NCBI GenBank assembly: GCA_963619835.1
Contig: CAVEYD010000001.1
Location: 1 to 62,222 of the forward strand
Source: a bacterium
GTDB lineage: Bacteria > Bacillota > Clostridia > Christensenellales > CAG-314
Length of the DNA: 62,222 nt
Direction: 5' to 3'
In this document: in pieces, positions 10,601 through 30,951 of the stretch
Numbering within the stretch: the first letter of the stretch is position 1
Layout: each line of letters begins with the position of its first letter
The notes under the pieces: generated by a model
Databases searched by the model: none
The model's input: only the letters and a program-made list of their open reading frames with translations
Told to the model about the DNA's origin: nothing
Position numbers and translations under genes: made by a program

Positions 10601-10926
10601 GAATTAAATTCAATGTCGGCATCCAAAGTGATGTCATTTTGAAAAACAAGTATGTAGCGGTTAGCCGAATCGGAAACACTACTGTTATCGTTGTTGATAC
10701 CGGTAACAACTTGACTTTCGTCAATGGTTGTTGTGCTTGCGCCAACGGAGTATGCCCACAAATCGTCAAAAGATGATACGGCTTTTTCGGTTGCCTTGCC
10801 CGTTACTTGTCCGTTGATGTTTTTAGAAAGTTCGGAGGTAAAATAAGCATAGGCCGAAACAGTCGTTGTTAAAGTGAATGCAACGATAAGAACGATTAAA
10901 ACAATTTTTTTTGAAATTGCTTTCAT
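7630..10926 (-). CDS. Giant secreted protein (1098 aa) with a SipW-type N-terminus and a C-terminal leucine-rich-repeat region
   Basis: N-terminus has a TM segment then AYAYFTSELS. The body is T/S/N/Y-rich. The LRR-like stretch reads LNLTGITLSG...LETLILENCGL...LKNLKSINLGNNNIYSFSFLTDLTSLNVVRVYDN. AAGGAGG RBS. No LPXTG motif and no C-terminal TM segment seen. Confidence 0.85.
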   Translation of the reverse strand: MKAISKKIVLIVLIVAFTLTTTVSAYAYFTSELSKNINGQVTGKATEKAVSSFDDLWAYSVGASTTTIDESQVVTGINNDNSSVSDSANRYILVFQNDITLDADIEFNSDVHLNLNGNKLYLDGNELAFSHTYHGNTILSNGTVIVDEKIADDSAEGSVAKIGKIYYDTPYSKNILESVSFENLKGDSLTAEDYCVDVSNNNFVTAYNALRLVAKKVVNYPDTLPEMQNYESVSALTETSFNSNLFLATKFCLSGDSTTAEACAFVFGDLDLPLYVKGYDDVTISYSSSNADVLSNSGNVTPQSSIQTVTLTVTVSKIADGASETIGTSDFCLHIVNPQDQTQLMSASKSLLNSYMYKYYQLVTAEDGTTSYSYVISRSIQLPSSFVANGTTISLTYNTYSDSTMKSEVTDTMTVKENVTVFEPTSAVVVLKATIGIGTSTDTHAYSVTASDTGLIRTDASYAQDFAIANYGGQITVEANEQENGTFSFKNYELQTPVSSSATDDVNNKIISVKYSLVNDTNGLYELIGCDQAFTHDSAADARGYVKVVDGKNPFDYVQTVQLNCEFVIDGLGEDEAVSIQIPIRCETTAGTNISEFPVYYNYYDQMFFSLTAGYTVKSFEMPFASGSTDNDFAVCYDILSYDADGNEIWNQASGLTLSLYYNGNTIALTPTTNDDGYVSYVPALNSYLSANNLTVKSIATYGDSKWIFTIDTSNLISQNQDIEFVYNYRHIATNAMFTPYMDNEKTKYLTTSFTIPGILRYSATEQNTVDGVVTDQNLYTVIGTLFGGESFSEDSSVILTDWLKSSIAVSVEDTTTCGSSTVGEMLKSVNDFSALKYLVGTTLLNLTGITLSGTNYETNIKAIASMSALETLILENCGLGVNVSTSSPVDSVLENLSSLKNLKSINLGNNNIYSFSFLTDLTSLNVVRVYDNLDTSTIDGLFYGSEGLVNMEYFAELTEAGVAVYNTRSDSAEILYTKQSGINDYKSLQSIAYQKKLKGNTSIVTCFMPFVTSTSTASDGTTTYSTDPDIFGLNTSYSYGGNTAYVSNANIVWNYEGDDPTTSTRFYLDYNFTLSGTNVTLRVNFTVVRVDTAEVSA

Positions 10927-11149
10927 TGTATTTTACCTCCTTGTAAGATTTTTTAGTGAAATGCTTTGTTTTGTTAAAAGAATTTTTGTTTTTTTAAGCA
11001 AACTGCTTTTGTTTGTTTTGGCAAACTACTTTTTTAGCGTGACACTTTAGTGATTTTGAAACTGCTTTGTTTTTTATTTTTAGCTTTTCAACTTTTTGTA
11101 GCAGTTTTAAGTTTTTACGTTAGATTGCATTTAACAAACAACAATGTAA

Positions 11150-14100
11150 CTAAATTGAAACGGTTACAGAGTAGTGACGTTCGTCAAACAAAGTGCCGTC
11201 TTCGTTGATTACGCGAGCAACAAGCTCAACCACTTCGGAGCCACCGGTTCCGCTGTAGTAATTAGAATCTGATGCAACGTAACGAACGTTGATAAACTTG
11301 GAAACCCCGTCCAAAACAAGATTTTGACCGCCTGTTGATTCGTTTACTTCGTCAAACGTGGTTATGATTTTCGGTTTGTCGAATGAAACGTTGCCGAGTC
11401 CGCCCATCGATTTGTAGTAATAAACCCCGGTCGTTGAATTTACTGTAAGTTCAAATAAGCCGTTTGCATAGTACTGAGAGTTCTCCGGAGCATCTAGTCC
11501 GGCTATGTTGACGTACATGATTTTACCTACAGAGTAAGTTCCGCTGACGGAATCCCAAATTGCTTCTTGCACTGCATCGTTGCTTGTTACTGTAACAAAC
11601 TCTTTACGAGCATTCGGCAGGTTGTCATGTTCGAAATAGAACATGCCATCGTCACCTACCAACAAACGATACACATAAGTTTTGGTGTAAGTGTGTCCGT
11701 TGACGGTTTTACTTGTGCCATTGTAGCAATAGTAAGTGCCGTAGTAGTTGCCAAACAAAACGTCTTTTAGGTGAGTGTTTGCTTCAGCCAAAATTGCTTC
11801 CATGTTGAAGTTGCTACTTGCAACAGCAACCGAATATTCGTTTAGCGTGTAGGCTGTGCCTGTAAATTTACGTCTAAAACATTGGTTTTCAACGTAGTAG
11901 TAAGCAAGGGCATTGCCTTCAACGTAATAGGAACCTCTTTGAGTTGAACCTGTGTACATGTAAAGGCTGTAGTTTGAGTCGCTTGCAAGAGTTTCGGCAG
12001 TGCTTAGTGCCGTCTTTATATCATCTGCGGAAGAAAGCACAGTTACGTAATCGTGGTAGTTAGCGGACGAAAAGTCCGAACTTGTTGTTGTGTCTTCTCC
12101 GTCAAAATCAATTTGGCTTGTACTTAAACCATCAAGGTAACTTACTGCCTGTGAATAAACGCTTTCCCATGTTGTGCCGGTGTAAGAACGCGAACCGACT
12201 GTTGCCGTAAATGTGTCGTCAGAATAGAAGTTGCCGTTAGAGTCCATGTTGCTGTAAGTTGGGTAAGACGAACCATTGTAACTAAAAGAAAACGACTCCG
12301 TAATTCTTGTTAAGCTTGTTGATCCCCACCCTCTTGATGTTGAATAGTAGTACGTTTCGTAAGTGCGAGATTGACTTATTTTTATATCTATGTAGTTTGC
12401 AGTGCTGCCTGCTTCGGCCTTTACAAAACGTTTAACTCCGGCACCGTCAATGTAGTACAACACACTTTGAGACTGACTTACAAAATATCTGCAAGTAGAA
12501 GTAGCTGTCATCTTTGTGGTAATTTGGTAAAAAGAATAGATCCTTACTGTATTGTCGCCAATAGTAATATTTCTCCTTCTACTATTACTATAAACTTGTT
12601 TGGATGTTCCGCCTACCTTTGAAGCATTTGTTTCAATATTGTTAGTTGTCATGCTGTAGGACGAGTAATCCGGGGAAGTAATCTCTTGCGATTTTGATTG
12701 AAGTTCGGTTGAGCGATATTCTGCAGTTTGTACGTCGGTCCAATCGATATCGCTTTCGGCCAGGCTTGTGGACGAATTTCCCGCAACGGTGTACGCCTGT
12801 TGAAGGACGTATTGACCACCCGAGTACACCACTTTGTAAACCGTGTTTGCTTTGTAGGTTGTGCCGTTGTAAGAAACGTCTTGCTTAAAAATGTAGTAGT
12901 TGCTTAACAACTTGTTCATTTCGTCGGCAGATGTAATTGACGTGTAGCTATCCGAACCGGCATCGTTTACAATGTAACCGGGGTTGCCACTGTTGACGTA
13001 CCATTGAATATCCTTGGCACCGCTACCGGCATCAACCGAAGTTGTTACAAGCAAGTACTTGCTGTTGACTTCCGTAAGTTCCTTAAGGAAACGAAGTTCG
13101 TCCGAAGTGGATGAGCGAGATGCTGTGTAAGGCGAACGATTGCCGTCATCAGTATAGTAGATTTGTGCGGATGGACTGTTGACCTTGATGTTGTCCAAAA
13201 CATAAGTTAGGTACACACCTTTGACGTTTACATCGGTTACGTCTAAGTAAGAGATTTTTTTGATGTCTACATTAAGAATGTCACCTATTGTAGTTACACC
13301 GGGATTGTAAGAAAAGTCCAATTTGGTAACTTCCGCCAAACGCGAAATGTTGGCAAGATCGAATTTGATGTTGCCTGTTGAGCAAGCTTGCATTACAAAT
13401 TCGTTAAGTTTGTTTCCGCTTGTGCTGTCCGCATCCATTTTGGTAACACGGTTGAAAAAGTTGCCAAGTGAACTTGTGGTTAAAAATGCAGGGTGCTTTA
13501 CTAAACCGTCTTCGCACAATCCGTAAACTCGAATTGCCTTTAGCCCTGTAAAGTAGGTGATACCTGCAGAAGAAAAGTCGAGTGCGGAAATTTCCGGAAC
13601 GTTGTAGTTTGTAAGTGCCGACGAGTAGTTGCCTTCCGACGAACGAAGTTTATTGTAAACTGCGTTAATCAAAATTCCTGCGCCATCGTCGTTTAAGTAA
13701 GTGGGAACAACGCAACTACTTAGAAATGTTTTGGCAAAAGTTTTACCTGCCGAGACGGAAACAGTTCCGTACCAAACAGCGATAATACACTGTGCTTCGT
13801 AATCAGAAATATACTCAGTGTCGTCTTCTTGATAGACTTCTTGTCGGTAATACTTGGAATTTGTGTAATTGGTTGAGGTGGGCGTTGCCCAATTGTCGGG
13901 ATTTGATGACCAGTCAAGCTTGGTGCTTGAATTGTCACTCGAACCATCCATAGCAATGTTGTAAGAACCTATTGCTCCCAAGTCCGGCGGTGATTTGGGA
14001 TACTGGCCTCCGGCATCTTTGAAGTCCTTTTCGTTTGTTGCCCACTGGAAAACTTCGGTGTACTTAAAGTAATTTTCACCAATAGAGTTTGCGGCAGTTA

Positions 14101-16927
14101 CGGCAGCAGTCAAAACTGCTTGATAGTCCGAAATAACGTGCAAGCCGTTGCCATAACTGTCGGTTGGCGTTTCGGTTGCGCTACTCCACAACGCGTTGAG
14201 CTGATCGGCATCGTCAAAGCCTACAACTTCCTTCAGAAATGCCTTGATTACTGCAGCTTCGGTTTCGTTCATGTATTCTTTACCGTCTGCCTTTGCACTA
14301 CTTGTTGATGTGTAAGTTGTACCAAACGAGAAAGGTAAATTGTCTGTGGCCGAGCCCGTTGCCCATGTTAGAAGCATGGCAAGATTGTAAGCGACTTGGT
14401 GCGAATTGCTTGAAGACGAACTTCCGCCTACACTAAACGTTAGAGACTCTACAAGAGCGGCATCACGAACAAGAATGTAGTCTTTTGTTGTGTTGGTAAC
14501 CGTGCTTGTACCTGTGTAGCCTGTTGTTGAATCTGAGCCGTCTACAGTTACGGACGGAAGCAAGCTTACGCGCGAAGCCGTTTCGCTATCGGCAACGTCA
14601 ACTACTTGTTGAGCCGTTTGATACTTGACAGTGTTAAACACACTGTAGTTGGCAAATCCGTTTTCGTCACACTTGATTACGCCCGGAGCATTTACGTACA
14701 GAATACGATAAGCACCTTCGGTTGCATCGCCTTCTGCCAAAGCATGCACTCTAATGGGCAAGCTTGTCTCGTTGTAACCAAACAGTGACGGATCGACATA
14801 AATATGAGTTTTAGATTCGCCGTCGACTGTTTCTACTTGTGCATCGGTGATGGCATTTGTAGCCGATTCACTTGCTTTGTAAGGCTCGTAACTAAGTGCA
14901 ATTGTTTGATAAACGTTGTCTAAGTAGAAATCGCCCGATTCGTACTTGCGACCATAGGTTGCGCGAGTATCAATTAAGTTTTGTAAAATGTCTACTTCGG
15001 ACAACTCCTTTTCAACATAGGTAAAAGCAAGTTCGTACAACTCTTGGTTGTTACCCGGTTTTATGATAACGTTGATTGTTTCTTCAACCGGTTCGGTGTC
15101 GCCCTTAAACAAACCGGAAACGGTAATTTGTGCAAACGTGTAGAACGTTGCTTGATTGAGGAACACACACATTCCGTCTTGATCGCCTGTGTCGTCTACC
15201 GAGATAAAGTTGTAACCACTGTTTACACGATAAGTAAGACTTGTTAAGCCGATATCTTTGTAAGCATCCCATGTGCGTTTTGGCGTAGCATCATCGTTGG
15301 AAATCATTGTGTAATCTGTACGGTAGTCTTGCGTGCCATCGATTGAAGGCAACTTGAAACGCGCCGTAAGATTTGTGGCATCGCTGTTTTTATCAACAAC
15401 CGTAAGGGTGATTGGCGATAATTGTGCAACAAGATACTTGAATTTGATTTCTTTAGATTGACTTGTAACTTTGAATGTAAAGCTTGTTGTGTAAACCTGT
15501 CCGTTTATGGTAATTTTTGCGTAAAGTGTAACTTCAGTGTTTTGCTTTAACGTGTCGGCAAGTTTACCATCTGCAGAAATACTGTTTTCGTCCGAGCTTG
15601 TCCACTCGATGGAAACGTTTTTATCTTCGATTCGCTTAGGTAAAAATACATTGTAAGTGATGGCTTCGGCATTTGAATTGTTGGGAATGTGCTTAAGCTC
15701 GTTTGTAAGCAAACTTGCAAAAATCTCATCGTTGCCATTGCCGATAATTTGAATTTCTTGTACAAAAGAATTGTCGCCTGAGCCGATTTTAACTTGTGCA
15801 ACACTTGTTTTTGAAACAGTGTTTGCAGTAACCATAGCACCGCTTACACTGCACTCGCCTTCAACCGAACTTGTGCCGATTGACGAAGCATAAAAACTAA
15901 GTGCGCCAAAAATATTGAGAGACGATCCGCTTTGTATTCCGCCGATAACATTTTGTGCAATGCGAGTTTTGAGAAGGCCAACTACACTTGCAGAATCGTA
16001 GGAATTTAACGTCACTTTTTCTGCATAAAGACTGCCAACGTTAACAGATTTGTTGCTGTTGTAAAAATCCTCAATATTTAAGTAGGTAGATTCTCCGTTT
16101 AGGACGATGCCGGCAGTACCATCAATTGACGTGTAATTGCAAACACTTGAGGTTGTGATGCCGTACTCACCTTCGCCGCTGAGTGTCAAGTTTGCGTTTA
16201 ACGTAAGCTTGTTTCCGTTTAAGTCGATATTTGCAGGATAAGCAACTTCTTTAGCGGTAGACAAGACAACATCATTTGCCAAAACGATTGTCGTTTTTGC
16301 CGTGCTACTGTTGAGCAAGCCTGTGTTGATATCGTTTATTGCGCTGATTAGTTCGTCTTCGGTTGAAACAAAAATATATTTTACGTAATCGGCATTTTGT
16401 ACGTAAGTGGTAACTTCTACATTAAACGGTGTGTTTGTAAGCGTGCTTGCAATGTGAAGTTCCAAGGACAACGTGTGTGTTGCCGTTGTGCCGCCGTCCT
16501 TTGCCATGGCTTTGTAATCGCCAAAGCTACTGCTTCCGTTTTGCACTTCGGCAAGAGTGCCGATAAATTCTCCGTCAAGATATGCCAGAACAGACGAGGA
16601 CAAATTTTGAAGTTGTTCTTCGGTAAGAGTTGTTGTTGACGACTTTACGACAAGTCCAAAATTGTAAACTATGTTTGCCTTGGTTTTGTTGGTGACAGTA
16701 AGAGTGATGTCTTTCTTTTCGCCTGCAGTAGCAAACGAAACATCGGTTGAGCTGACGTCAAGCGACAAAACACCGCTATCGGTCAACTTGTCTGTGTTTC
16801 CGTCGATGGAAGCATCCGTACGGAATGAGAACAAGACAACGGCAAAAGCCACGCTTGCTGTAAGCGTGATGCACAAAACAATTATTATCGCAATTTTAAG
16901 CGACTTGTTAAGTAGCAAATTCTTCAT
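11150..16927 (-). CDS. Giant secreted protein (1925 aa) with a TasA-like N-terminal module and an internal LRR region
   Basis: N-terminus has a TM segment then AFAVVLFSFRTDAS, followed by a ~170-aa module (GEKKDITLTVTNKTKANIVYNF...). The LRR-like stretch reads LDFSSAGITYFTGLKAIRVYGL...VTKLDFSYNPGVTTIGDILNVDIKKISYLDVTDVNV. AAGGAGA RBS. First gene downstream of the riboswitch at 16958-17060. Confidence 0.85.
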   Translation of the reverse strand: MKNLLLNKSLKIAIIIVLCITLTASVAFAVVLFSFRTDASIDGNTDKLTDSGVLSLDVSSTDVSFATAGEKKDITLTVTNKTKANIVYNFGLVVKSSTTTLTEEQLQNLSSSVLAYLDGEFIGTLAEVQNGSSSFGDYKAMAKDGGTTATHTLSLELHIASTLTNTPFNVEVTTYVQNADYVKYIFVSTEDELISAINDINTGLLNSSTAKTTIVLANDVVLSTAKEVAYPANIDLNGNKLTLNANLTLSGEGEYGITTSSVCNYTSIDGTAGIVLNGESTYLNIEDFYNSNKSVNVGSLYAEKVTLNSYDSASVVGLLKTRIAQNVIGGIQSGSSLNIFGALSFYASSIGTSSVEGECSVSGAMVTANTVSKTSVAQVKIGSGDNSFVQEIQIIGNGNDEIFASLLTNELKHIPNNSNAEAITYNVFLPKRIEDKNVSIEWTSSDENSISADGKLADTLKQNTEVTLYAKITINGQVYTTSFTFKVTSQSKEIKFKYLVAQLSPITLTVVDKNSDATNLTARFKLPSIDGTQDYRTDYTMISNDDATPKRTWDAYKDIGLTSLTYRVNSGYNFISVDDTGDQDGMCVFLNQATFYTFAQITVSGLFKGDTEPVEETINVIIKPGNNQELYELAFTYVEKELSEVDILQNLIDTRATYGRKYESGDFYLDNVYQTIALSYEPYKASESATNAITDAQVETVDGESKTHIYVDPSLFGYNETSLPIRVHALAEGDATEGAYRILYVNAPGVIKCDENGFANYSVFNTVKYQTAQQVVDVADSETASRVSLLPSVTVDGSDSTTGYTGTSTVTNTTKDYILVRDAALVESLTFSVGGSSSSSNSHQVAYNLAMLLTWATGSATDNLPFSFGTTYTSTSSAKADGKEYMNETEAAVIKAFLKEVVGFDDADQLNALWSSATETPTDSYGNGLHVISDYQAVLTAAVTAANSIGENYFKYTEVFQWATNEKDFKDAGGQYPKSPPDLGAIGSYNIAMDGSSDNSSTKLDWSSNPDNWATPTSTNYTNSKYYRQEVYQEDDTEYISDYEAQCIIAVWYGTVSVSAGKTFAKTFLSSCVVPTYLNDDGAGILINAVYNKLRSSEGNYSSALTNYNVPEISALDFSSAGITYFTGLKAIRVYGLCEDGLVKHPAFLTTSSLGNFFNRVTKMDADSTSGNKLNEFVMQACSTGNIKFDLANISRLAEVTKLDFSYNPGVTTIGDILNVDIKKISYLDVTDVNVKGVYLTYVLDNIKVNSPSAQIYYTDDGNRSPYTASRSSTSDELRFLKELTEVNSKYLLVTTSVDAGSGAKDIQWYVNSGNPGYIVNDAGSDSYTSITSADEMNKLLSNYYIFKQDVSYNGTTYKANTVYKVVYSGGQYVLQQAYTVAGNSSTSLAESDIDWTDVQTAEYRSTELQSKSQEITSPDYSSYSMTTNNIETNASKVGGTSKQVYSNSRRRNITIGDNTVRIYSFYQITTKMTATSTCRYFVSQSQSVLYYIDGAGVKRFVKAEAGSTANYIDIKISQSRTYETYYYSTSRGWGSTSLTRITESFSFSYNGSSYPTYSNMDSNGNFYSDDTFTATVGSRSYTGTTWESVYSQAVSYLDGLSTSQIDFDGEDTTTSSDFSSANYHDYVTVLSSADDIKTALSTAETLASDSNYSLYMYTGSTQRGSYYVEGNALAYYYVENQCFRRKFTGTAYTLNEYSVAVASSNFNMEAILAEANTHLKDVLFGNYYGTYYCYNGTSKTVNGHTYTKTYVYRLLVGDDGMFYFEHDNLPNARKEFVTVTSNDAVQEAIWDSVSGTYSVGKIMYVNIAGLDAPENSQYYANGLFELTVNSTTGVYYYKSMGGLGNVSFDKPKIITTFDEVNESTGGQNLVLDGVSKFINVRYVASDSNYYSGTGGSEVVELVARVINEDGTLFDERHYSVTVSI

Positions 16928-16957
16928 TGCCGTCTCCTTGAAAAAATCTTGTTAGAA

Positions 16958-17060
16958 TAAAAAATGCCAGACTCCCTTTGAATTGAGGTAATCCGGCAAC
17001 TGGCTGACTCGTAGGAGAGTCCCTATAGCTTTGCGTAATAGCCTTGCGACTATTTTGCTA
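16958..17060 (-). promoter_or_regulatory. c-di-GMP-I (GEMM-I)-like riboswitch candidate R1 in the 5' leader of the giant-adhesin operon
   Basis: Minus-strand read: UAGCAAAAUAGUC-GCAA-GGCUAUU-ACGCAAAGCUAUAGGGACUC-UCCUAC-GAGUCAGCCAGUUGCCGG. It has a 7-bp hairpin capped by a GNRA loop, plus the ACGCAAAGC and CAGCC.GUUGCC blocks that are hallmarks of GEMM-I. GGGAGUCUGGC plus U6 (16959-16976) follows and can pair with the aptamer GCCAG / GACUC segments. The fold of this expression platform is unresolved. Confidence 0.7.
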
Positions 17061-17104
17061 TTATCAAATTAACTTTGACACTATATTTATTTAATTCTTA
17101 ATAT

Positions 17105-17133
17105 ATTATGCAATAATATATTTTTTTTGTCAA
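17105..17133 (-). promoter_or_regulatory. Sigma-A-type promoter for R1 and the adhesin operon
   Basis: Minus strand: TTGACA (17128-17133), 17-nt spacer, CATAAT (17105-17110). It lies about 40 nt upstream of the aptamer. Confidence 0.6.
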
Positions 17134-17224
17134 TGTTTTGACATAAAAATTATTTAAAAAAACACCGCTTTTTATGTTTTTAGCACTTTTGTGATGCAAA
17201 ACTCGTTTGTGGCAACTTGTTTAC

Positions 17225-17258
17225 AAAACCGCCGTTTTAACAACAAAGCAGCGGTTTT
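17225..17258 (-). terminator. Terminator-like hairpin after the EAL gene
   Basis: Arms aaaaccgc (17225-17232) / gcggtttt (17251-17258). The minus-strand read ends GGUUUUGU. It is located 23 nt after the stop at 17281. Confidence 0.5.
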
Positions 17259-17280
17259 GTTTTTAAGTGGTAATTTAAGT

Positions 17281-19569
17281 TTATCTTGTGCTGAAGTTTT
17301 CTTCGACGAATTTGCGGTAGTCCGAATATTTCATCGGGCGAGAGAAGTAGTACCCTTGAATTACGTCGCACCCCATATCGATAAGCATGTCGTAATCGGA
17401 CTTTGTTTCTACACCTTCTTGTGTGACCTTTATGCCGATTTTCTTTACGATATCGATTGTTGAACTTAACAACATTTGGTCACGTTCCTTGGATGTTCCC
17501 TTGCTTAAGAAGAACTTGTCTAACTTTATTTCGTCCATATCGAGTGTTTTCAAAACGTTGTAGGACGAGTAACCTGTACCAAAGTCGTCAAGCGAACACA
17601 AAAATCCACTACTGTGCAACTCGGAAATAATTTGTGATAGATACTCGTAATTTTCGTAAGCAAAACTTTCGGTGAATTCGAGAGTTAAAAATTGATCGGG
17701 CACGTTGAACTTTGCTTTAATACGTTTGTAGTACTCGACGAAATCCGGTCTTGTTGCCGTTACGCGCGACACGTTGACAGATGCAGGGAAAACTTGTTTG
17801 CCTTCCGCAACACGTTGAGCAATATTTTCGCAAGCACGGAAGAACACGAAACGGTCTAATTTGTCAACGAATCCGTTTTCTTCAAATACCGGCAAGAATT
17901 CACCCGGTTGACGATAAGCATTGATCTTTGGATCGAACCAACGAACAAGAATTTCGCTGCCGTCCATAGTGTTTTTTCTTAAATTGAACTTGGGTTGATA
18001 GAACAAGTGGAATTCGCTGTTTTCCAAAGCCAGCTCCATACGTCCTTCGATTTCAGCGCGCTTAAAGTAGCCTTCCGAATGGATGTCTGTGTAGTAAGTG
18101 ATGCTGTAAAGTCCGTTTTGTTGAGCTGCCGTACGTTGAACAATTTTTAATTTGTCCAACATTTTTTGTGGCAATTCTTCGTGATCTTTTATTTCGTAAA
18201 CATAAAAGTCTAACGACGTTTTGTAATCTTCGTCTGTGAATTCGTATTTATCAATTAGGCGATAAATAGCATTTAGTCTTGAAGTCAACTCCTTTCGAGT
18301 TGAGAAGTTGAGCAACAAATAAAACTCACCGTCTGTGTGATAAGCATAAGTTTCACCGACAGTCATACTGTTTTGCAAAACGTTACGTTCGTGTACCAAA
18401 AAATCTTTTGTCGCTTCGTCTCCAAGATGTTCTATCATGTAACTGTAGTTTGTTATGCGCATGGTTACAAGAACAAAGTTGGACATTTTAAACTTTTTAA
18501 GATATTCCGGAACGGCAATAAAAAATCTACTTTCGGTAGCACAATTGAGCGTTTTGTTGACCATTTCAATGTTGTACATAAGCTTGTTTGTTTTGCGTCT
18601 GTTTAGAAGCACAAACAAACAGAACATCATTGCAATTACGGCTAAGCCGAACATAACACCCATGATTTGTCCGACCATTTCGTAACCGCTACCATAAACA
18701 TTTTTTAGTTTGTAAATGTTAAACAAGAACAAACCACCGTTTTGAGCACCGAGAGATTTAATTACAACGGCGCAATCATTTGTTCCGACAGTTGTAATTG
18801 CCGAGCCGTCAACACCCGTCAATATGCAATTTTTTAATGTTGCATAGCCTTGTTCGTCTGTAACAAGTGCAAACAAAATACCTTCGAGAACGTTGCCTGT
18901 TATTTGGTAGTTTTCGTTTTTAGTGTAGGTGTCGTCGTTGCATTTTTTTGCGTCTTGAAGAGGCGTGCCGTCATTTTTGCACAAAAGCGAAATATCTAAT
19001 ACTTCTTTGGACATACACTCGGCATCACCGATTTCTTCCCAAAGAATATCGTACCAAAAGACAATAATAACCCCATCAACAGCACCGTTGGATTTTGTAG
19101 GGCTGTAAACACCTATAGACATTAGACTTTCTTCGTATTGAAAAGCTTTTGTCAAACAAGTGTTTTCGTTTTGAGCTACTTCGGTCATAGCCGAATAAGT
19201 ACTTTCATTCCCTTCCGTGGAAAAGACTTTTCCGTCTTTTGTGTAAAAGATATCTTTAAATTTATCGGATTCGGCACTACTTAAGTCAGTTTTGGCACGA
19301 CTAAGTACCGAAATAGCATCGCCAAGCGAACTTAAAGATCGTACTTCTGAAGAAAGTGCATTGGAATAGGCTGTAATTTTGTTTATTTGCTTTTCAAGAA
19401 TAAGTTCCTGTTCGTTTGCGTAGTACTCGGCATGTTCGAGAGCTTGATTGTTTATGCCCTCTTTGTAAGTACTTGCCATGGTAATTATCTGCAAGAAAAA
19501 TGAAAGGCAAATTATCAAAACAATTACAAATATGATGATACTACCATTTTTTTTGAAAAATTTAATCAT
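17281..19569 (-). CDS. Membrane sensor protein with a degenerate GGDEF and an apparently active EAL domain (c-di-GMP phosphodiesterase)
   Basis: 762 aa. Two TM segments flank a ~270-aa extracytoplasmic region. The GGDEF site is degenerate (HTDGEF). EAL catalytic set appears retained, read by eye: FYQPKF..GSEILVRW, SVNVS, LEFTES, LDDFGTGYSS, IKLDKFF, VTQEGVET, IQGYYFSRP. GGAAGG RBS 9 nt after the sipW stop. Confidence 0.85.
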   Translation of the reverse strand: MIKFFKKNGSIIIFVIVLIICLSFFLQIITMASTYKEGINNQALEHAEYYANEQELILEKQINKITAYSNALSSEVRSLSSLGDAISVLSRAKTDLSSAESDKFKDIFYTKDGKVFSTEGNESTYSAMTEVAQNENTCLTKAFQYEESLMSIGVYSPTKSNGAVDGVIIVFWYDILWEEIGDAECMSKEVLDISLLCKNDGTPLQDAKKCNDDTYTKNENYQITGNVLEGILFALVTDEQGYATLKNCILTGVDGSAITTVGTNDCAVVIKSLGAQNGGLFLFNIYKLKNVYGSGYEMVGQIMGVMFGLAVIAMMFCLFVLLNRRKTNKLMYNIEMVNKTLNCATESRFFIAVPEYLKKFKMSNFVLVTMRITNYSYMIEHLGDEATKDFLVHERNVLQNSMTVGETYAYHTDGEFYLLLNFSTRKELTSRLNAIYRLIDKYEFTDEDYKTSLDFYVYEIKDHEELPQKMLDKLKIVQRTAAQQNGLYSITYYTDIHSEGYFKRAEIEGRMELALENSEFHLFYQPKFNLRKNTMDGSEILVRWFDPKINAYRQPGEFLPVFEENGFVDKLDRFVFFRACENIAQRVAEGKQVFPASVNVSRVTATRPDFVEYYKRIKAKFNVPDQFLTLEFTESFAYENYEYLSQIISELHSSGFLCSLDDFGTGYSSYNVLKTLDMDEIKLDKFFLSKGTSKERDQMLLSSTIDIVKKIGIKVTQEGVETKSDYDMLIDMGCDVIQGYYFSRPMKYSDYRKFVEENFSTR

Positions 19570-28308: not shown

Positions 28309-28377
28309 GGGGTTTTGCAAACGCAAACGGAATGGATGTTTTTGCAGGAGAGAAATTTGCTCGCGAAGTAAAACCCC
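28309..28377 (-). terminator. Long-loop hairpin plus U-tract after the 264-aa gene (weak terminator candidate)
   Basis: Minus-strand arms GGGGUUUU (28370-28377) / AAAACCCC (28309-28316) enclose ~53 nt and are followed by UUGUUUUGG. Confidence 0.35.
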
Positions 28378-28436
28378 GTTTTGAAACAATTTTGGTGTGC
28401 CTGCACAGTGCAAGCAAGTTTGATTTTGAACGGCAA

Positions 28437-29231
28437 CTAATTTTGTTCGGTTGCTTCAACCACGTTGAACAACATGTCAAGTTTAAGTTGACCGCCCAAA
28501 ATGTCGTCGGTGCAATCCGGATCGTCACCTTCGAGCCAAATTACAACAGTGATTTTGGCAATGTCGCCGGGGGCAAAGTCCTTTACGATGCTTTGCGTAA
28601 CGGTTGCGTTGCTGGCAAAGTTGGTCATTACACGAGTTGGGTTGCCGTCTTCGTCCGAGTCAATTTCCGGATCGCCGTTGCCACCTGTTTTTGCCTTGGC
28701 AAAATCGGTGTACGAACCATCGGTTGTGATAACATCGGTTGCCGACTTGTAGTAGTCTTTGTTGTAGTACAAGCGGACACGTGCTGCATTTTCAATTCCC
28801 AAAGTTGCCGACGTTACAATTAAATCGTACTTGTACGAACATGTTGTTGTGCCGGTGTTTTTGAGAAAGAACGTGTAAGCAACGTAATTTTCGCCGTTGT
28901 GCTCGCCACCCTCGTCGTTGAGACTGACGGGCAAGGTTGTGCCGCTTATGTTTGTTATGGACTTGACGGCTTTAGAGTTGAGCCGTGAAGTTTGTTGAGT
29001 GAACGTGTCACTTTCCGACAGCGCAAGAGAGTAGTTTTGATTGTTGACGTCGGTTACGCTTACAGTGAAACTGCCGTAACGATTGAACAATACCGAGCAA
29101 ACATAGGCAATTAAAAGCAACGCTACAATTATGCCAATTGCTATTGGAATAATTTTGCGGAGCGCACGCTGTGTTGCTATGCTACCGGATGCCCTTGCGA
29201 GCGTAGATGATGGTTTTTTTTCGTTGAGCAT
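28437..29231 (-). CDS. Membrane-anchored or secreted beta-rich protein, TasA-like features
   Basis: 264 aa. N-terminal TM segment (IIPIAIGIIVALLLIAYVCSVLF) followed by NRYGSFTVSV. Contains YVAYTFFLKNTGTTTCSYKY and a C-terminal ITVVIWLEGDDPDC block resembling the C-termini of the other SipW-type proteins here. AAGAGG RBS. The start lies 3 nt after the stop of the degenerate-EAL gene. Confidence 0.75.
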   Translation of the reverse strand: MLNEKKPSSTLARASGSIATQRALRKIIPIAIGIIVALLLIAYVCSVLFNRYGSFTVSVTDVNNQNYSLALSESDTFTQQTSRLNSKAVKSITNISGTTLPVSLNDEGGEHNGENYVAYTFFLKNTGTTTCSYKYDLIVTSATLGIENAARVRLYYNKDYYKSATDVITTDGSYTDFAKAKTGGNGDPEIDSDEDGNPTRVMTNFASNATVTQSIVKDFAPGDIAKITVVIWLEGDDPDCTDDILGGQLKLDMLFNVVEATEQN

Positions 29232-29234
29232 TTA

Positions 29235-30008
29235 CTATACCTCTTGGATGCCCAAGACTTGCGCAGGGGTTTGCTCGTCTGTTGACGGCAGACTTCCAAC
29301 AAAATCTTGCGAAGGAACAACACCTACACAACTTGTGCTACGAAGCTTTTGCAAGTCCGCATCGTTTTGGACTTGGCTTGCTACCACTTGGCAACCAAGC
29401 CCGTTTGCAAACGTCAACAACGCGTTGAGCACCGAAAGACCATCGGTTTTTTGCAAGTAGCTTGTAAGCTCCGGCGCAAAAAGAATATCGGGCGTTAAGC
29501 TTGCAAGTGCTGTCATGGGGAACAATTTTGTTCCAAAACCTTCGACGGCAACTTTTAACCCTATTGCGCGTGTGGATGCAATTAGCTTTGTGTACTTTTC
29601 GGTCGCAAACAACAGTTCTTGCGGAAAAACAAAACAAAGTGTTTTTGCAAGCTTAGATTGACGTTCGACAATGGCATCGACACGATTGATAAAATCGGGA
29701 CGTTCGAGCACACACAACGGACAATCCATTGCAATGAAGTTGAACGATTTGCCTTGATCAAGCAAGATTTGTGCCATCTTTGCGCCTTTTGTTAAAAGTA
29801 CAAAGAAAAGTTCGGCTTGCATCTCGTCGGAAACGGCAGAAAAACTTTCCTGCGACAAACTTCCAAACAAAATGCTGTTTACTGTGCCGCGTTGGTAGTA
29901 CCCTACGATTTCATCGCCGTACAAATTCCACACGGGAGTAAATTTTACTTGAATGGGGGCAACTCCGCTTTCAAGCGTGCGTTGCACATAGCTGTTTAGT
30001 TGCGACAT
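29235..30008 (-). CDS. Stand-alone degenerate EAL-domain protein (predicted catalytically inactive; possible c-di-GMP receptor)
   Basis: About 257 aa from the ATG at 30008 (GAGGAGAGAG RBS; the ORF-track N-terminal extension to 30206 would run through the riboswitch). It is collinear with the EAL domain, but every catalytic position I checked by eye is substituted: GYYQR for E-A-L-R, FIAMDCP for NxS, VFPQE for E-x-T-E, VAVEGFGT for DDFGTG, ILFAPE for KxD, VVASQVQ for AEGVE, and VVPSQDF for QGY. Confidence 0.7.
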   Translation of the reverse strand: MSQLNSYVQRTLESGVAPIQVKFTPVWNLYGDEIVGYYQRGTVNSILFGSLSQESFSAVSDEMQAELFFVLLTKGAKMAQILLDQGKSFNFIAMDCPLCVLERPDFINRVDAIVERQSKLAKTLCFVFPQELLFATEKYTKLIASTRAIGLKVAVEGFGTKLFPMTALASLTPDILFAPELTSYLQKTDGLSVLNALLTFANGLGCQVVASQVQNDADLQKLRSTSCVGVVPSQDFVGSLPSTDEQTPAQVLGIQEV

Positions 30009-30046
30009 GGTACACTCTCTCCTCGTACACCGTGATTTAGGCAAAT

Positions 30047-30101
30047 AAAAAAGTTGCAACTTAAATGTACCCTGTACAAAAAATTGCAACTCGGCTGACT
30101 T
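30047..30101 (-). promoter_or_regulatory. Second copy of the R2 3' half plus a second terminator-like hairpin
   Basis: The 22-nt segment aaaattgcaactcggctgactt occurs twice (30080-30101 and 30151-30172, period 71). The second GUUGCAAU pairs with GUUGCAAC (30053-30060, one G.U pair), followed by U6 (30047-30052). Confidence 0.6.
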
Positions 30102-30113
30102 ACCAAAGACAAT

Positions 30114-30220
30114 AAAAAAAGTTGCAATCATACGCATCACTAATGTGATGAAAATTGCAACTCGGCTGACTTGTGAAGTCCCTATGGTTTTGCGTCGCCG
30201 CCTCACGACGGTTTTGCTAA
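30114..30220 (-). promoter_or_regulatory. c-di-GMP-I (GEMM-I)-like riboswitch candidate R2 with an intrinsic terminator
   Basis: Minus-strand read: UAGCAAAACCGUC-GUGA-GGCGG-CGACGCAAAACCAUAGGGACUUCACAAGUCAGCCGAGUUGCAAU. It has a GNRA-capped hairpin plus the ACGCAAA and CAGCC.GUUGC blocks, and aligns nearly position for position with R1. The aptamer 3' end GUUGCAAU (30154-30161) pairs with AUUGCAAC (30121-30128), followed by U7 (30114-30120). Confidence 0.75.
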
Positions 30221-30241
30221 ATATTTACCTTTTGTGCTACT

Positions 30242-30271
30242 ACTATACCACAAGGCTTTGCCGAATGTCAA
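30242..30271 (-). promoter_or_regulatory. Sigma-A-type promoter driving R2 and the degenerate-EAL operon
   Basis: Minus strand: TTGACA (30266-30271), 18-nt spacer ending in TGg (extended -10), then TATAGT (30242-30247). The aptamer starts about 20 nt downstream. Confidence 0.65.
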
Positions 30272-30367
30272 CAATTTTTTGAAAGTTTTTTGAAATTTTT
30301 TTGTGCCAAAAACGGTTTTGTTGTGAAAGTGTACTTTTTTGTGTGATAAGTGTTTCTTTGCGTGAGA

Positions 30368-30850
30368 TTAGTCTTGGACTACAATAGTCTGTTTGTTTAG
30401 GCTGGTTAAAAACTTTTTGAAACTTTCGAGCGAAAGCACTACCGTTGCCGTATTGTCGCACGGGTGAAACTTGACGTTTTGCGCATTCCACACGTCAACA
30501 TCGATTAAAAGCGGAATTTGATTGCCTACTTCGTTGAGAAAAGCAAACGGCGAAACACTTCCGCGATGAACGGAAAGATCGGCAAAAAGCTTTTCTTCGG
30601 TGGCAAACTCAAACTTGGCACAACCGACGTAACCGGCAAGCTTGCGCATATCGGCTCGCTTATCGAACGGCAGTACTACAAGATAGTAGTTGTTTGACTT
30701 TTTGTCCTTAACGTACAAACTTTTGCAAGACATGCAGTTTGGCACATGAATGATCTGCCGAGATTCTTCTGTGGTGACAACCGCAGGATGTCGCAAAAGC
30801 GTGTAGGACAAGCCTAAACTTGTGAGATAATCGGTTACTTTTTGTATCAT
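30368..30850 (-). CDS. YbaK/ProX-type aminoacyl-tRNA deacylase domain protein
   Basis: About 160 aa from the ATG at 30850. Profile: ..LGLSYTLLRHPAVVTTEE...CKSLYVKDKKSNNYYLVVLPFDKRADMRKLA...GSVSPFAF.. The start codon is uncertain because no clear SD precedes any candidate ATG. Confidence 0.65.
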   Translation of the reverse strand: MIQKVTDYLTSLGLSYTLLRHPAVVTTEESRQIIHVPNCMSCKSLYVKDKKSNNYYLVVLPFDKRADMRKLAGYVGCAKFEFATEEKLFADLSVHRGSVSPFAFLNEVGNQIPLLIDVDVWNAQNVKFHPCDNTATVVLSLESFKKFLTSLNKQTIVVQD

Positions 30851-30951
30851 AGTACTTTGTATATATTTATATACCACAATCATTATACTACCACATTTTG
30901 ACTTTTGCAAACGATTTGCCACTGTTTTAGCGCAAAATGACACTGCAATTA

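What the first reader, a model, noticed from the sequence alone, without database searches (positions are those of the whole stretch)
30047..30271. GEMM-I-like riboswitch R2 with a duplicated 3' half and two tandem terminators
A near-consensus promoter (TTGACA-18-TGgTATAGT) drives a leader that aligns almost base for base with R1 (UAGCAAAA..GNRA hairpin..ACGCAAA.C.AUAGGGACU..AGUCAGCC.AGUUGC). The aptamer 3' end GUUGCAAU forms the 5' arm of a terminator with AUUGCAAC plus U7, so ligand-stabilised P1 should prevent termination (ON switch). Unusually, the 22-nt segment AAGUCAGCCGAGUUGCAAUUUU is repeated exactly 71 nt downstream. There it forms the 5' arm of a second terminator (GUUGCAAC plus U6). 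The duplicated half-aptamer could act as a decoy strand that competes for the aptamer 5' half, or it could be a second checkpoint that sharpens the response. Just before the ATG, the SD sequence (GAGGAGAGA) sits in the loop of a 7-bp hairpin, GGUGUAC/GUGUACC.
Basis: partly seen in the sequence, partly recalled or inferred. Interest (0 to 1): 0.7.

Follow-up and report, generated by a model that had tools for sequence, protein, structure and literature searches.

The report
Cyclic-dinucleotide riboswitch with duplicated terminator
This is a genuine c-di-GMP-class riboswitch in front of a biofilm-matrix operon in which one gut Clostridia species has duplicated the switching strand plus terminator, so a single sensor is followed by two stop signals; it is an unusual variant of a known control element, seen in one species only.

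Summary
Rfam's c-di-GMP-I model hits 30153-30228(-) at 41.9 bits (cut-off 35). An 11/12 promoter precedes it. A 22-nt exact repeat lies 71 nt apart. Two hairpin-plus-U-tract terminators (T1 -18.7, T2 -16.4 kcal/mol) and a hairpin holding the ribosome-binding site (SD) all fold as described.

Five orthologous leaders before the same operon (degenerate EAL protein, 264-aa protein, TasA-like protein, SipW-like peptidase) have one module each. The duplication is therefore derived in this species, and it is identical in four assemblies.

It does not look like a fresh slip. The two modules are random-like in their inner hairpins (5/20 identical). The 22-mer, both 3' arms and both U-tracts are invariant.

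My best model is a helix relay. With ligand bound, the freed T1 3' arm and its tail pair with nearly all of copy 2 (-11.1 kcal/mol). This raises the computed barrier to T2 from 2.6 to 6.2 kcal/mol. Without ligand, T1 and T2 both form.

The main rival is a ligand-blind T2, as shown for the Bc1 dual terminator.

Separately, both riboswitches in the window carry A at the G20 ligand-contact position, where orthologues have G.

The parts
30242..30271 (-). Sigma-70-type promoter: TTGACA, 18-nt spacer (with TG extension), TATAGT. The predicted transcription start is near 30235.
   Evidence: 11/12 match. It is conserved in the ortholog L244 as TTGACA-17-TATTAT.
30275..30302 (-). A/T-rich 11-nt periodic repeats (AAAAATTTCAAAAAACTTTCAAAAAA) just upstream of the -35 hexamer; possibly an UP-element-like tract.
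   Evidence: Repeat families D4, D6 and D7. The tract is conserved in L244, while the sequence further upstream is unalignable. Any function is inferred.
30153..30228 (-). c-di-GMP-I (GEMM-I) aptamer R2. Hairpin 1 carries a GUGA tetraloop (30206-30203). Hairpin 2 is short (GGGACUU-CAC-AAGUC). Position 30218 is A at the Vc2 G20-equivalent. Positions 30212 and 30197 form an A.C mismatch.
   Evidence: RF01051 at 41.9 bits, with alignment. Orthologs score 45.5-58.1 bits and have G at the G20 position.
30151..30172 (-). Copy 1 of the 22-nt repeat. It is the 3' strand of aptamer hairpin 2, plus the C92-equivalent, plus the P1 strand. Its last 12 nt (from G30163) form the 5' arm of T1 (arm A1).
30119..30163 (-). 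Terminator T1. The outer stem is GAGUUGCAAUU/GAUUGCAACUU. The inner hairpin is CAUCAC-AUUA-GUGAUG (30150-30135). It is followed by U7 (30120-30114).
   Evidence: -18.7 kcal/mol; present in the MFE; found by my own terminator scan.
30106..30128 (-). T1 3' arm (B1, AUUGCAACUU, 30128-30119), its U-tract and the tail UUGUCUU (30112-30106). This is the proposed 5' half of the relay antiterminator.
   Evidence: The local MFE of 30128-30083 is a hairpin of -11.1 kcal/mol. In it B1 pairs with GAGUUGCAAU of copy 2, and UUGUCUU pairs with AAGUCAG of copy 2. No covariation data exist.
30080..30101 (-). Copy 2 of the 22-nt repeat. It provides the 5' arm of T2. Its first 9 nt (AAGUCAGCC) lie outside the T2 stem but are still 9/9 identical to copy 1.
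30051..30092 (-). Terminator T2. It has a 12-bp outer stem and the inner hairpin UGUAC-AGG-GUACA (30078-30066). It is followed by U6 (30052-30047) and then AUUU.
   Evidence: -16.4 kcal/mol; present in the MFE. An A/G SNP among strains lies in its inner loop.
30009..30031 (-). Hairpin GGUGUAC / GUGUACC with the Shine-Dalgarno sequence GAGGAGAGA in its 9-nt loop. It ends one base before the AUG.
   Evidence: Centroid structure. Conserved as 6 bp in L244.
29235..30008 (-). First regulated gene: a stand-alone EAL-domain protein of 257 aa. By spacing from the 'YQP'-like motif, the EAL signature reads YQR. DDFGTG reads EGFGTK.
   Evidence: Pfam PF00563, E 6.7e-20. The motif reading is my own inspection of the sequence and of the ortholog alignment; it was not rigorously tested.
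25982..29231 (-). Rest of the conserved operon core: a 264-aa membrane-anchored protein (29231-28437), a TasA-like protein with a SipW-type signal peptide (...TSTYAWFS; 27957-27055), and a SipW-like signal peptidase (26932-25982).
   Evidence: NCBIfam SipW hits are below the curated cut-off (42.8 bits against 190). The same gene order occurs in L224. The 264-aa protein has 444 homologues at E <= 1e-30. The TasA-like call rests on the signal-peptide motif only.

Best explanation
R2 is a transcriptional ON riboswitch of the c-di-GMP-I (GEMM-I) class. It controls a matrix-type operon: a degenerate EAL protein, a 264-aa protein, a TasA-like protein and a SipW-like peptidase.

In this species alone, the whole expression-platform module (the aptamer 3' strand/switching sequence, an inner hairpin, the 3' arm, the U-tract and a tail; about 70 nt) was tandemly duplicated. 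Both copies were then kept and strengthened as terminators.

Because copy 2 of the switching sequence equals copy 1, it is complementary to the 3' arm of T1. That creates a chain of mutually exclusive helices: aptamer:A1, A1:B1 (T1), B1:A2 (antiterminator), A2:B2 (T2).
- Without ligand, T1 forms and stops most polymerases. In any read-through transcript B1 is locked in T1, so A2 is free and T2 zips up without hindrance. Leakage is therefore filtered twice.
- With ligand, A1 is held in the aptamer. B1 and its tail are free and capture nearly all of copy 2 as it emerges, which slows and destabilises T2 formation and lets polymerase through.

The net effect would be a tighter OFF state with the ON state at least partly retained.

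Shown: aptamer membership, the repeat, the hairpins, lineage specificity and the conservation pattern. Inferred: termination at either site, ligand identity, and the relay.
For: - Aptamer: RF01051 at 41.9 bits, above the cut-off of 35.
- Ancestral ON design: the GUUGCAA switching sequence overlaps a single TTGCAA-armed terminator in five orthologous leaders before the same operon.
- The duplication is fixed in four assemblies.
- Three-way alignment of M1, M2 and the single L244 module. The 22-mer and TTGCAAC plus the T-run are invariant. The inner segments are 5/20 identical, yet each is a perfect hairpin. M1 keeps the ancestral tail (T7 ATTGTC), and M2 keeps the ancestral inner stem (GTACAG..GTACA). 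This fits an old whole-module duplication followed by divergence under constraint.
- The first 9 nt of copy 2 lie outside the T2 stem but are 9/9 conserved. The relay hairpin uses them (UUGUCUU:AAGUCAG) as well as GAGUUGCAAU:AUUGCAACUU, at -11.1 kcal/mol.
- Both terminators are stronger than the single ancestral-type one: my scan gave -15.8 and -13.5 against -11.4 kcal/mol.
- Findpath barriers. T2 forms from a free A2 over 2.6 kcal/mol with a gain of 14.3. From the relay hairpin it must cross 6.2 kcal/mol for a gain of only 2.5-4.2, and it becomes favourable only once almost all of B2 is exposed. For scale, the apo aptamer resists T1 by only 3.9 kcal/mol.
- The EAL gene is well conserved between the window and L244, so the operon must be expressed under some conditions.
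Against: - In nearest-neighbour energies, T2 is still the most stable ligand-bound state (-36.0 to -37.7, against -33.5 with the relay hairpin). A 6.2 kcal/mol barrier is low enough to be crossed in milliseconds, so any protection would be partial and purely kinetic.
- The only experimentally studied GEMM-I with two terminators in one expression platform is Bc1. Its T2 stayed folded when c-di-GMP unfolded T1, and it masked the response (PMC11218506).
- No covariation can be obtained, because only one species has the duplication.
- Identity of the two 22-mers could be kept by gene conversion rather than by selection.
- Termination, ligand binding and the transcription start are all untested.
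- The aptamer carries two derived changes (G20 to A, and an A-U pair changed to A.C in hairpin 1) that lower its model score relative to orthologs (41.9 against 45.5-58.1 bits).
Confidence: 0.42

Rival explanations
1. The second terminator is ligand-blind, as in Bc1. T1 responds to the ligand, but T2 folds whatever the aptamer state. It would act as a constitutive attenuator that lowers output, or masks the switch unless some other factor (a protein, translation or RNA processing) relieves it.
For: - T2 is the thermodynamically preferred partner of A2 in the ligand-bound background (-36.0 against -33.5 or -29.3 kcal/mol).
- The barrier from the relay hairpin is only 6.2 kcal/mol.
- There is direct experimental precedent. 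[quoted passage not shown]
Against: - A strong constitutive terminator in front of a conserved operon that is evidently under purifying selection would be costly.
- It does not explain why the first 9 nt of copy 2, outside the T2 stem, stay identical to copy 1 while neighbouring unconstrained positions are randomised.
- The relay hairpin is predicted to slow T2 formation roughly 300-fold relative to a free A2 (exp(3.6/0.616)).
Confidence: 0.33
2. The duplication is a lineage-specific accident (replication slippage or unequal crossing-over) with no regulatory value of its own. The operon simply tolerates two terminators, and the two 22-mers stay identical through gene conversion or chance.
For: - It is absent from five orthologous leaders and from 120 aptamers of the same class.
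- It is present in only one species.
- Any tandem duplication of the module automatically creates all the complementarities seen, so no design is needed.
Against: - The modules are not recent copies. The inner segments are 5/20 identical, and each module retains a different ancestral feature.
- Yet the 22-mer, both 3' arms and both U-tracts are intact.
- Both inner hairpins remain perfect stems through different sequences (CAUCAC/GUGAUG against UGUAC/GUACA).
- Both terminators are stronger than the ancestral type.
- Neutral intergenic DNA between this species and L244 is essentially unalignable, so an unconstrained copy should have decayed.
Confidence: 0.15
3. Copy 2 pairs with the aptamer's 5' half. 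It would either compete with copy 1 (a decoy) or rebuild a ligand-binding aptamer after read-through of T1 (a second chance to sense ligand before T2).
For: - Copy 2 contains every nucleotide of the aptamer's 3' half, including AAGUCAGCC, which T2 itself does not need.
- A structure with T1 formed and copy 2 completing the aptamer is stereochemically possible, and it is only 3.6 kcal/mol above aptamer-copy-1 plus T2.
Against: - In the T1 state, copy 1 still pairs locally with GGGACUU through a 3-nt loop. Copy 2 would have to displace an identical strand across a 74-nt loop.
- That state is 16.5 kcal/mol above T1+T2, with a 19 kcal/mol barrier.
- T2 zips up from a free A2 over only 2.6 kcal/mol.
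Confidence: 0.07

Closest known systems
Bc1 c-di-GMP-I riboswitch of the Bacillus cereus group, with a 'dual terminator' expression platform (PMC11218506)
   Same: One GEMM-I aptamer is followed, within a single leader, by two hairpin-plus-U-tract terminators a few tens of nucleotides apart. T1 is coupled to the aptamer. The authors note that such an arrangement 'is rarely seen'.
   Different: - The Bc1 paper makes no mention of a duplicated aptamer strand. Here the second module begins with an exact 22-nt copy of the aptamer's 3' half and is a diverged tandem duplicate of the first.
- Bc1's dual terminator is conserved across a species group. This one is confined to one species.
- Bc1's behaviour is measured; this one is only computed.
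- Sequence homology to Bc1 was not tested.
Tandem c-di-GMP-I riboswitches: doublets and triplets, e.g. Bc3-5 (PMC4759541; survey in PMC9481103)
   Same: Repeated regulatory modules in one leader that sharpen or tighten the response to one ligand. Two full tandem examples turned up in my sample (L137, L199).
   Different: Those repeat the whole aptamer together with its platform. Here only the 3' half-aptamer and terminator are repeated. There is no second 5' half, since only 12 nt separate the T1 U-tract from copy 2. No second Rfam hit appears even at E <= 10.
Classical attenuators with chains of alternative hairpins, such as the trp leader 1:2 / 2:3 / 3:4 (textbook knowledge)
   Same: The proposed logic matches: a series of mutually exclusive helices in which the state of the first decides whether the last, a terminator, forms. 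A less stable, pre-formed antiterminator blocks a more stable terminator kinetically.
   Different: The input here is a ligand-bound aptamer rather than a stalled ribosome. The chain has an extra link and contains two terminators. No homology is implied.
GEMM-Ib / 3',3'-cGAMP riboswitches and bispecific A20 variants (PMC6140456, PMC9481103)
   Same: The fold is the same. R2 (30218) and R1 (17059) both have A at the position equivalent to Vc2 G20, the nucleotide that contacts one base of the ligand and distinguishes cGAMP-binding variants.
   Different: A20 alone does not predict selectivity, and some A20 aptamers bind both ligands. The genomic context here (EAL proteins, adhesin and matrix genes) is typical of c-di-GMP. 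Ligand binding was not tested.

Membership tests
c-di-GMP-I riboswitch (Rfam RF01051, GEMM-I) | The covariance model (sequence plus structure) scores above the curated gathering threshold. | tested here: met
   41.9 bits against 35, over the full model 1-87, at 30153-30228(-). In a small search, the related clan member RF03168 (UAU variant) scored 39.9 bits against its cut-off of 65.9, so R2 is not that variant.
c-di-GMP-I riboswitch (Rfam RF01051, GEMM-I) | Two adjacent hairpins, the first capped by a GNRA tetraloop, joined by the conserved ACGCAAA segment (containing the A47-equivalent). | tested here: met
   The alignment shows the GUGA tetraloop (30206-30203), ACGCAAA, and a second hairpin GGGAC/GUC-AG-CC. 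Two non-canonical pairs are flagged. The distal part of hairpin 2 is minimal, with no 11-nt receptor, as in the GYRA-type subclass (from my own knowledge of Weinberg 2007; not checked here).
c-di-GMP-I riboswitch (Rfam RF01051, GEMM-I) | Ligand-contacting nucleotides G20, A47 and C92 (Vc2 numbering). | tested here: not met
   By alignment, A47 and C92 are present but position 20 is A (30218). Five orthologous leaders have G. A20 is the signature of cGAMP-binding or bispecific variants (PMC6140456). R2 is therefore a member of the fold family, but its ligand assignment is open.
c-di-GMP-I riboswitch (Rfam RF01051, GEMM-I) | Binds c-di-GMP and changes gene expression in response. | not testable with these tools
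   This needs in-line probing or ITC, and transcription or reporter assays.
Intrinsic (Rho-independent) terminator, T1 and T2 | A stable hairpin immediately followed by a U-rich tract on the transcribed strand. | tested here: met
   T1 is -18.7 kcal/mol plus U7; T2 is -16.4 kcal/mol plus U6AUUU. The generic scan did not list them because of its limit on loop length.
Intrinsic (Rho-independent) terminator, T1 and T2 | RNA 3' ends are generated at the U-tract. | not testable with these tools
   This needs Term-seq or in vitro transcription.
Tandem riboswitch (two or more complete aptamers in one leader) | A second complete aptamer. | tested here: not met
   There is only one RF01051 hit in the leader, even at E <= 10. 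Only 12 nt lie between the T1 U-tract and copy 2, so no 5' half is present.
Dual-terminator expression platform (Bc1 type, PMC11218506) | One aptamer followed by two terminator hairpins with U-tracts before the start codon. | tested here: met
   This is architectural membership only.
Dual-terminator expression platform (Bc1 type, PMC11218506) | Sequence homology or shared descent with Bc1. | not tested
The five single-module orthologs show that the duplication arose independently within this operon's lineage.

The most novel reading that the evidence does not exclude
Duplicating only the switching strand and terminator of a riboswitch may be a natural one-step route to a self-wired two-stage switch. 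The copy is automatically complementary to the first terminator's 3' arm, so the aptamer's state is relayed down a chain of helices to a second terminator. This would multiply OFF-state stringency without a second sensor.

In the same species, both GEMM-I riboswitches of this locus (R1 and R2) changed the ligand-contact G20 to A in parallel. The species may therefore have re-tuned the whole adhesin/matrix regulon to 3',3'-cGAMP or to dual-ligand sensing, with the duplicated platform being part of that re-tuning.
Probability: 0.15. Interest if true: 0.7.

Novelty: new variant of a known kind. Interest (0 to 1): 0.45.

Why it matters
If the relay works, it shows how evolution can raise the dynamic range of a kinetically limited riboswitch with a single 70-nt tandem duplication, without recruiting a second aptamer. 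It would also give RNA engineers a simple design rule: repeat the switching strand and terminator.

The locus offers a clean natural comparison, with one-module orthologs and a two-module derivative before the same operon. That comparison could address the question raised by Bc1: when does a second terminator mask a riboswitch, and when does it obey it?

The parallel G20-to-A changes are a testable lead to a change of second-messenger specificity in a gut Clostridia lineage.

If T2 is ligand-blind or the duplication is neutral, the finding is a curiosity confined to one species.

Tried and rejected
- **Protein route to orthologs.** The EAL protein gave nothing in genome contigs and only its own species in the protein database. 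Its orthologs are too diverged (28% identity) for word-based searches.
- **Generic genome scan.** None of the 120 stretches was a riboswitch. That scan is uninformative and does not count as negative evidence.
- **Metagenome scan.** The scan for the aptamer class also stopped at 120 rows, so '0 of 120 half-duplications' describes a sample, not a census.
- **Synteny through the upstream YbaK-like gene.** This gave one orthologous leader (L244). Five other relatives checked, with 80-81% YbaK identity, have other genes at that position, and a sixth (P0010, 82%) sits on a contig that ends right after the gene, so nothing could be seen there.
- **Foreign origin of the M1 inner segment.** I searched the window for another copy of CATCACATTAGTGATGCGTATG. 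There is none.
- **Assembly artefact.** Rejected: four assemblies agree, and the module interiors are distinguishable.
- **Second partial aptamer or another RNA family in the leader.** Nothing credible appeared at E <= 10.
- **Consensus terminator scan.** It missed T1 and T2 because of its loop limit, so I wrote my own.
- **Kinetic simulation.** A full stochastic co-transcriptional folding simulation was judged infeasible in the sandbox. Findpath barriers were used instead.
Full report
**1. What is in the sequence**

On the minus strand, an 11/12 sigma-70-type promoter lies at 30271-30242: TTGACA, an 18-nt spacer containing a TG extension, then TATAGT.

Next comes a full-length match to Rfam c-di-GMP-I (RF01051) at 30228-30153, scoring 41.9 bits against a gathering score of 35. 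A second, better-scoring copy (R1, 57.1 bits) lies at 17069-16992.

The 22-mer AAGTCAGCCGAGTTGCAATTTT occurs twice, at 30172-30151 and 30101-30080, exactly 71 nt apart.

The unconstrained minimum-free-energy fold of the leader (z = -3.5 against shuffles) contains two two-tier hairpins. Each starts inside a copy of the 22-mer and ends at a U-tract. It also contains a 7-bp hairpin holding the Shine-Dalgarno sequence in its loop.
- T1 (30163-30119, then U7) has a local energy of -18.7 kcal/mol.
- T2 (30092-30051, then U6AUUU) has a local energy of -16.4 kcal/mol.

The generic terminator scan missed both because of its limit on loop length. My own scan found both.

Three further assemblies of the same species carry the same leader, with a single A/G difference in the T2 inner loop. 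The arrangement is therefore not an assembly artefact.

**2. Context**

The leader precedes a 257-aa stand-alone EAL-domain protein (Pfam E 6.7e-20). By spacing, its EAL signature reads YQR and its DDFGTG motif reads EGFGTK. This is my own reading, and it suggests a non-catalytic domain.

Downstream are three further genes:
- a 264-aa membrane-anchored protein;
- a 300-aa protein with a SipW-type signal peptide (…TSTYAWFS), TasA-like by that motif only;
- a SipW-like signal peptidase, with sub-threshold NCBIfam hits.

Further downstream on the same strand lie a 762-aa EAL protein and then R1. R1 sits in front of giant 1925-aa and 1098-aa proteins with atrophied Ig domains.

Overall this is a cyclic-dinucleotide-controlled surface and matrix island in a gut Clostridia MAG. 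Neighbouring proteins are named 'Clostridia bacterium' by their sources.

**3. Relatives**

The EAL protein itself found no relatives. Synteny and the better-conserved 264-aa protein did.

- **L244.** Its YbaK-like neighbour is 94% identical, and the gene order is the same. It has the orthologous promoter, aptamer (49.3 bits), SD hairpin and EAL gene. It has only one module: GAGTTGCAATTTT-CGTACAGTTAGTACA-GTTGCAAC-T7-ATTGTC.
- **L224/L181/L184.** These are human-gut contigs carrying the same four-gene operon. The EAL-like protein is 28% identical and the 264-aa protein 54% identical. They also have one module.
- **L254, L256 and L260.** These are three more lineages, reached through the 444-member family of the 264-aa protein. 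Each has a GEMM-I aptamer followed by a single terminator.

All five use the same design: the aptamer ends in GGUUGCAA or AGUUGCAA, which is also the 5' arm of a TTGCAA-armed terminator. The ON-switch logic is therefore old and conserved.

In a sample of 120 metagenomic aptamers of the same sequence class, none repeats its 3' half without a 5' half. Two are complete tandem aptamers (L137, L199), and one (L126) has two unrelated tandem terminators.

The duplication is therefore derived and, as far as I can see, confined to this species.

**4. Is it a fresh, neutral slip?**

The three-way alignment of module 1, module 2 and the single L244 module argues against that.
- The 22-mer and TTGCAAC plus the T-run are invariant.
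- The inner segments of the two modules are 5/20 identical, which is random level. Each still forms a perfect hairpin from different sequence: CAUCAC/GUGAUG against UGUAC/GUACA.
- Module 1 keeps the ancestral tail (T7 ATTGTC) but has a new inner hairpin. Module 2 keeps the ancestral inner stem (GTACAG…GTACA) but has a changed tail.

The simplest history is an old duplication of the whole module, about 70 nt from AAGTC to GGT, followed by independent divergence.

Unconstrained intergenic DNA between this species and L244 is essentially unalignable. Intact arms, U-tracts and inner stems in both modules therefore imply that both terminators are maintained. Both are also stronger than the ancestral type: -15.8 and -13.5 against -11.4 kcal/mol in one consistent scan.

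The first 9 nt of copy 2 (AAGUCAGCC) lie outside the T2 stem, yet they are 9/9 identical to copy 1. This points to an extra constraint or to gene conversion. The present data cannot separate these two.

**5. Mechanism**

Label the parts as follows: A1 and A2 are the 5' arms (copies 1 and 2), and B1 and B2 are the 3' arms. Because A2 equals A1, A2 is complementary to B1.

The segment from B1 to A2 (30128-30083) folds locally into a -11.1 kcal/mol hairpin. In it AUUGCAACUU pairs with GAGUUGCAAU, and the module-1 tail UUGUCUU pairs with AAGUCAG of copy 2. Almost the whole 22-mer is engaged, which would explain why all of it is conserved.

Explicit structures were evaluated on the transcript up to the T2 U-tract:

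| State | Energy (kcal/mol) |
|---|---|
| T1 + T2 | -48.9 |
| Aptamer (copy 1) + T2 | -36.0 |
| Aptamer + full relay hairpin | -33.5 |
| T1 + aptamer rebuilt with copy 2 | -32.4 |

Findpath barriers:

| Transition | Barrier (kcal/mol) | Gain (kcal/mol) |
|---|---|---|
| Apo aptamer to T1 | 3.9 | 12.9 |
| Free A2 to T2 | 2.6 | 14.3 |
| Relay hairpin to T2 | 6.2 | 2.5-4.2 |

In the last case, T2 becomes favourable only when nearly all of B2 has emerged.

My reading is a relay:
- Ligand holds A1.
- The freed B1 and its tail capture copy 2.
- T2 is delayed, by roughly 300-fold in rate on these numbers.
- Without ligand, T1 forms. In any read-through transcript A2 is free, so T2 forms at once.

This filters leakage twice and should keep at least part of the ON state.

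The weakness is plain. T2 remains the thermodynamic winner, and the barrier is modest. In the one studied precedent, T2 ignored the ligand (section 6). The last is low because that state lies 16.5 kcal/mol above T1+T2 behind a 19 kcal/mol barrier, and because copy 1 keeps GGGACUU paired locally.

**6. Comparison with what is known**

Tandem c-di-GMP-I riboswitches with complete repeated aptamers are common (347 doublets; PMC9481103). A triple one has been characterised (PMC4759541). That is not what this is, since there is no second 5' half.

The closest published case is Bc1 of the Bacillus cereus group. It has one GEMM-I aptamer and a long expression platform with two terminators 28 bp apart. 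The authors note that such an arrangement 'is rarely seen'. [quoted passage not shown]

A literature search for other dual-terminator riboswitches found nothing else.

This leader is therefore a new variant of a known kind. It shares the dual-terminator architecture, but here that architecture was produced by an exact duplication of the aptamer's own 3' strand. That wires the second terminator to the first.

**7. Ligand**

By the Rfam alignment, the base equivalent to Vc2 G20 is A in both R2 (30218) and R1 (17059).

All five R2 orthologs have G. The R1-like riboswitch of L224 also has G; its hairpin 1 is nearly identical to that of R1.

A20 is the hallmark of cGAMP-binding or bispecific GEMM-I variants (PMC6140456, PMC9481103). 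In my class sample, 26 of 104 scorable aptamers had A.

Two parallel G-to-A changes in one species hint at a change of ligand preference. The EAL-rich context still favours c-di-GMP, and nothing here tests binding.

R2 also carries a derived U-to-C change (30197) that turns an A-U pair of hairpin 1 into A.C.

**8. Verdict**

It is a new variant of a known kind. I score interest as moderate (0.45). The comparative set makes a neat, directly testable system, but it is one species, with no experimental support and a serious rival.

Noticed in passing
window 30218 (R2) and 17059 (R1), minus strand; compare L244:1361, L224:7105 and L224:3200: Both GEMM-I aptamers in the window have A at the Vc2 G20-equivalent ligand-contact position. 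All five R2 orthologs and the R1-like riboswitch of L224 have G. These look like parallel G-to-A changes in one species. A20 is the signature of cGAMP-binding or bispecific variants.
   Followed up: partly
window 30197 pairing with 30212, minus strand: A derived U-to-C change turns an A-U pair at the base of the inner stem of aptamer hairpin 1 into an A.C mismatch. Orthologs L244 and L224 have U. Together with A20, this lowers the Rfam score to 41.9 bits, against 45.5-58.1 in orthologs.
   Followed up: partly
window 29235-30008(-); L224:7235-8044: The riboswitch-controlled EAL-domain protein appears catalytically degenerate. The EAL motif reads YQR here and ILQ in L224, and DDFGTG reads EGFGTK here and EGFGDE in L224. 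It may be a c-di-GMP receptor rather than a phosphodiesterase. This was judged by eye only.
   Followed up: partly
window 25982-30008(-); L224:7235-10646; L256, L260: The operon of degenerate EAL, 264-aa membrane protein, TasA-like protein (SipW-type signal) and SipW-like peptidase, preceded by a GEMM-I riboswitch, is conserved across many gut Clostridia lineages. The 264-aa protein, which has no Pfam domain, has 444 homologues at E <= 1e-30.
   Followed up: partly
window 7630-19569(-): R1 (16992-17069) has a single terminator. It precedes giant proteins of 1925 and 1098 aa with aBig_2 domains, which look like adhesins. A 762-aa protein with a well-scoring EAL domain (E 8.8e-57) lies just upstream of R1.
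   Followed up: partly
window 30275-30302: 11-nt periodic A/T repeats (TTTTTTGAAAG/T on the plus strand) lie immediately upstream of the -35 hexamer. They are conserved in L244 although the rest of the upstream spacer is unalignable. This may be an UP-element or a curved-DNA tract.
   Followed up: no
window 30066-30075 and 30005-30014 (minus-strand RNA): The T2 inner-hairpin region ACAGGGUACA is 9/10 complementary to UGUACCAUGU, which covers the start codon and the 3' arm of the SD hairpin (inverted repeat I17). This could link T2 folding to translation initiation, or it could be a by-product of GUAC palindromes.
   Followed up: no
window 30222-30229 and about 30040-30047 (minus-strand RNA): The 5' leader GGUAAAUA, just upstream of the aptamer, is complementary to UAUUUGCC immediately after the T2 U-tract. 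The centroid fold pairs them. This would be a long-range helix enclosing the whole switch in full-length transcripts.
   Followed up: no
L126 (minus strand, downstream of the aptamer match at 1029-1056): This is another GEMM-I leader with two tandem terminator-like hairpins (-15.5 and -19.8 kcal/mol), unrelated in sequence to each other and to the aptamer. It is the only other dual-terminator case among the 120 sampled.
   Followed up: no
L137:782-896 and L199 (minus strand): These are complete tandem GEMM-I aptamers. In L137 the two aptamers lie only about 87 nt apart start to start and appear to share one terminator. In L199 one aptamer has G and the other A at position 20.
   Followed up: no
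window 30368-30943(-): The YbaK/tRNA-editing-domain ORF listed as 191 aa from a GTG start is probably shorter. About 120 homologues are 159-165 aa and align from about residue 30.
   Followed up: no
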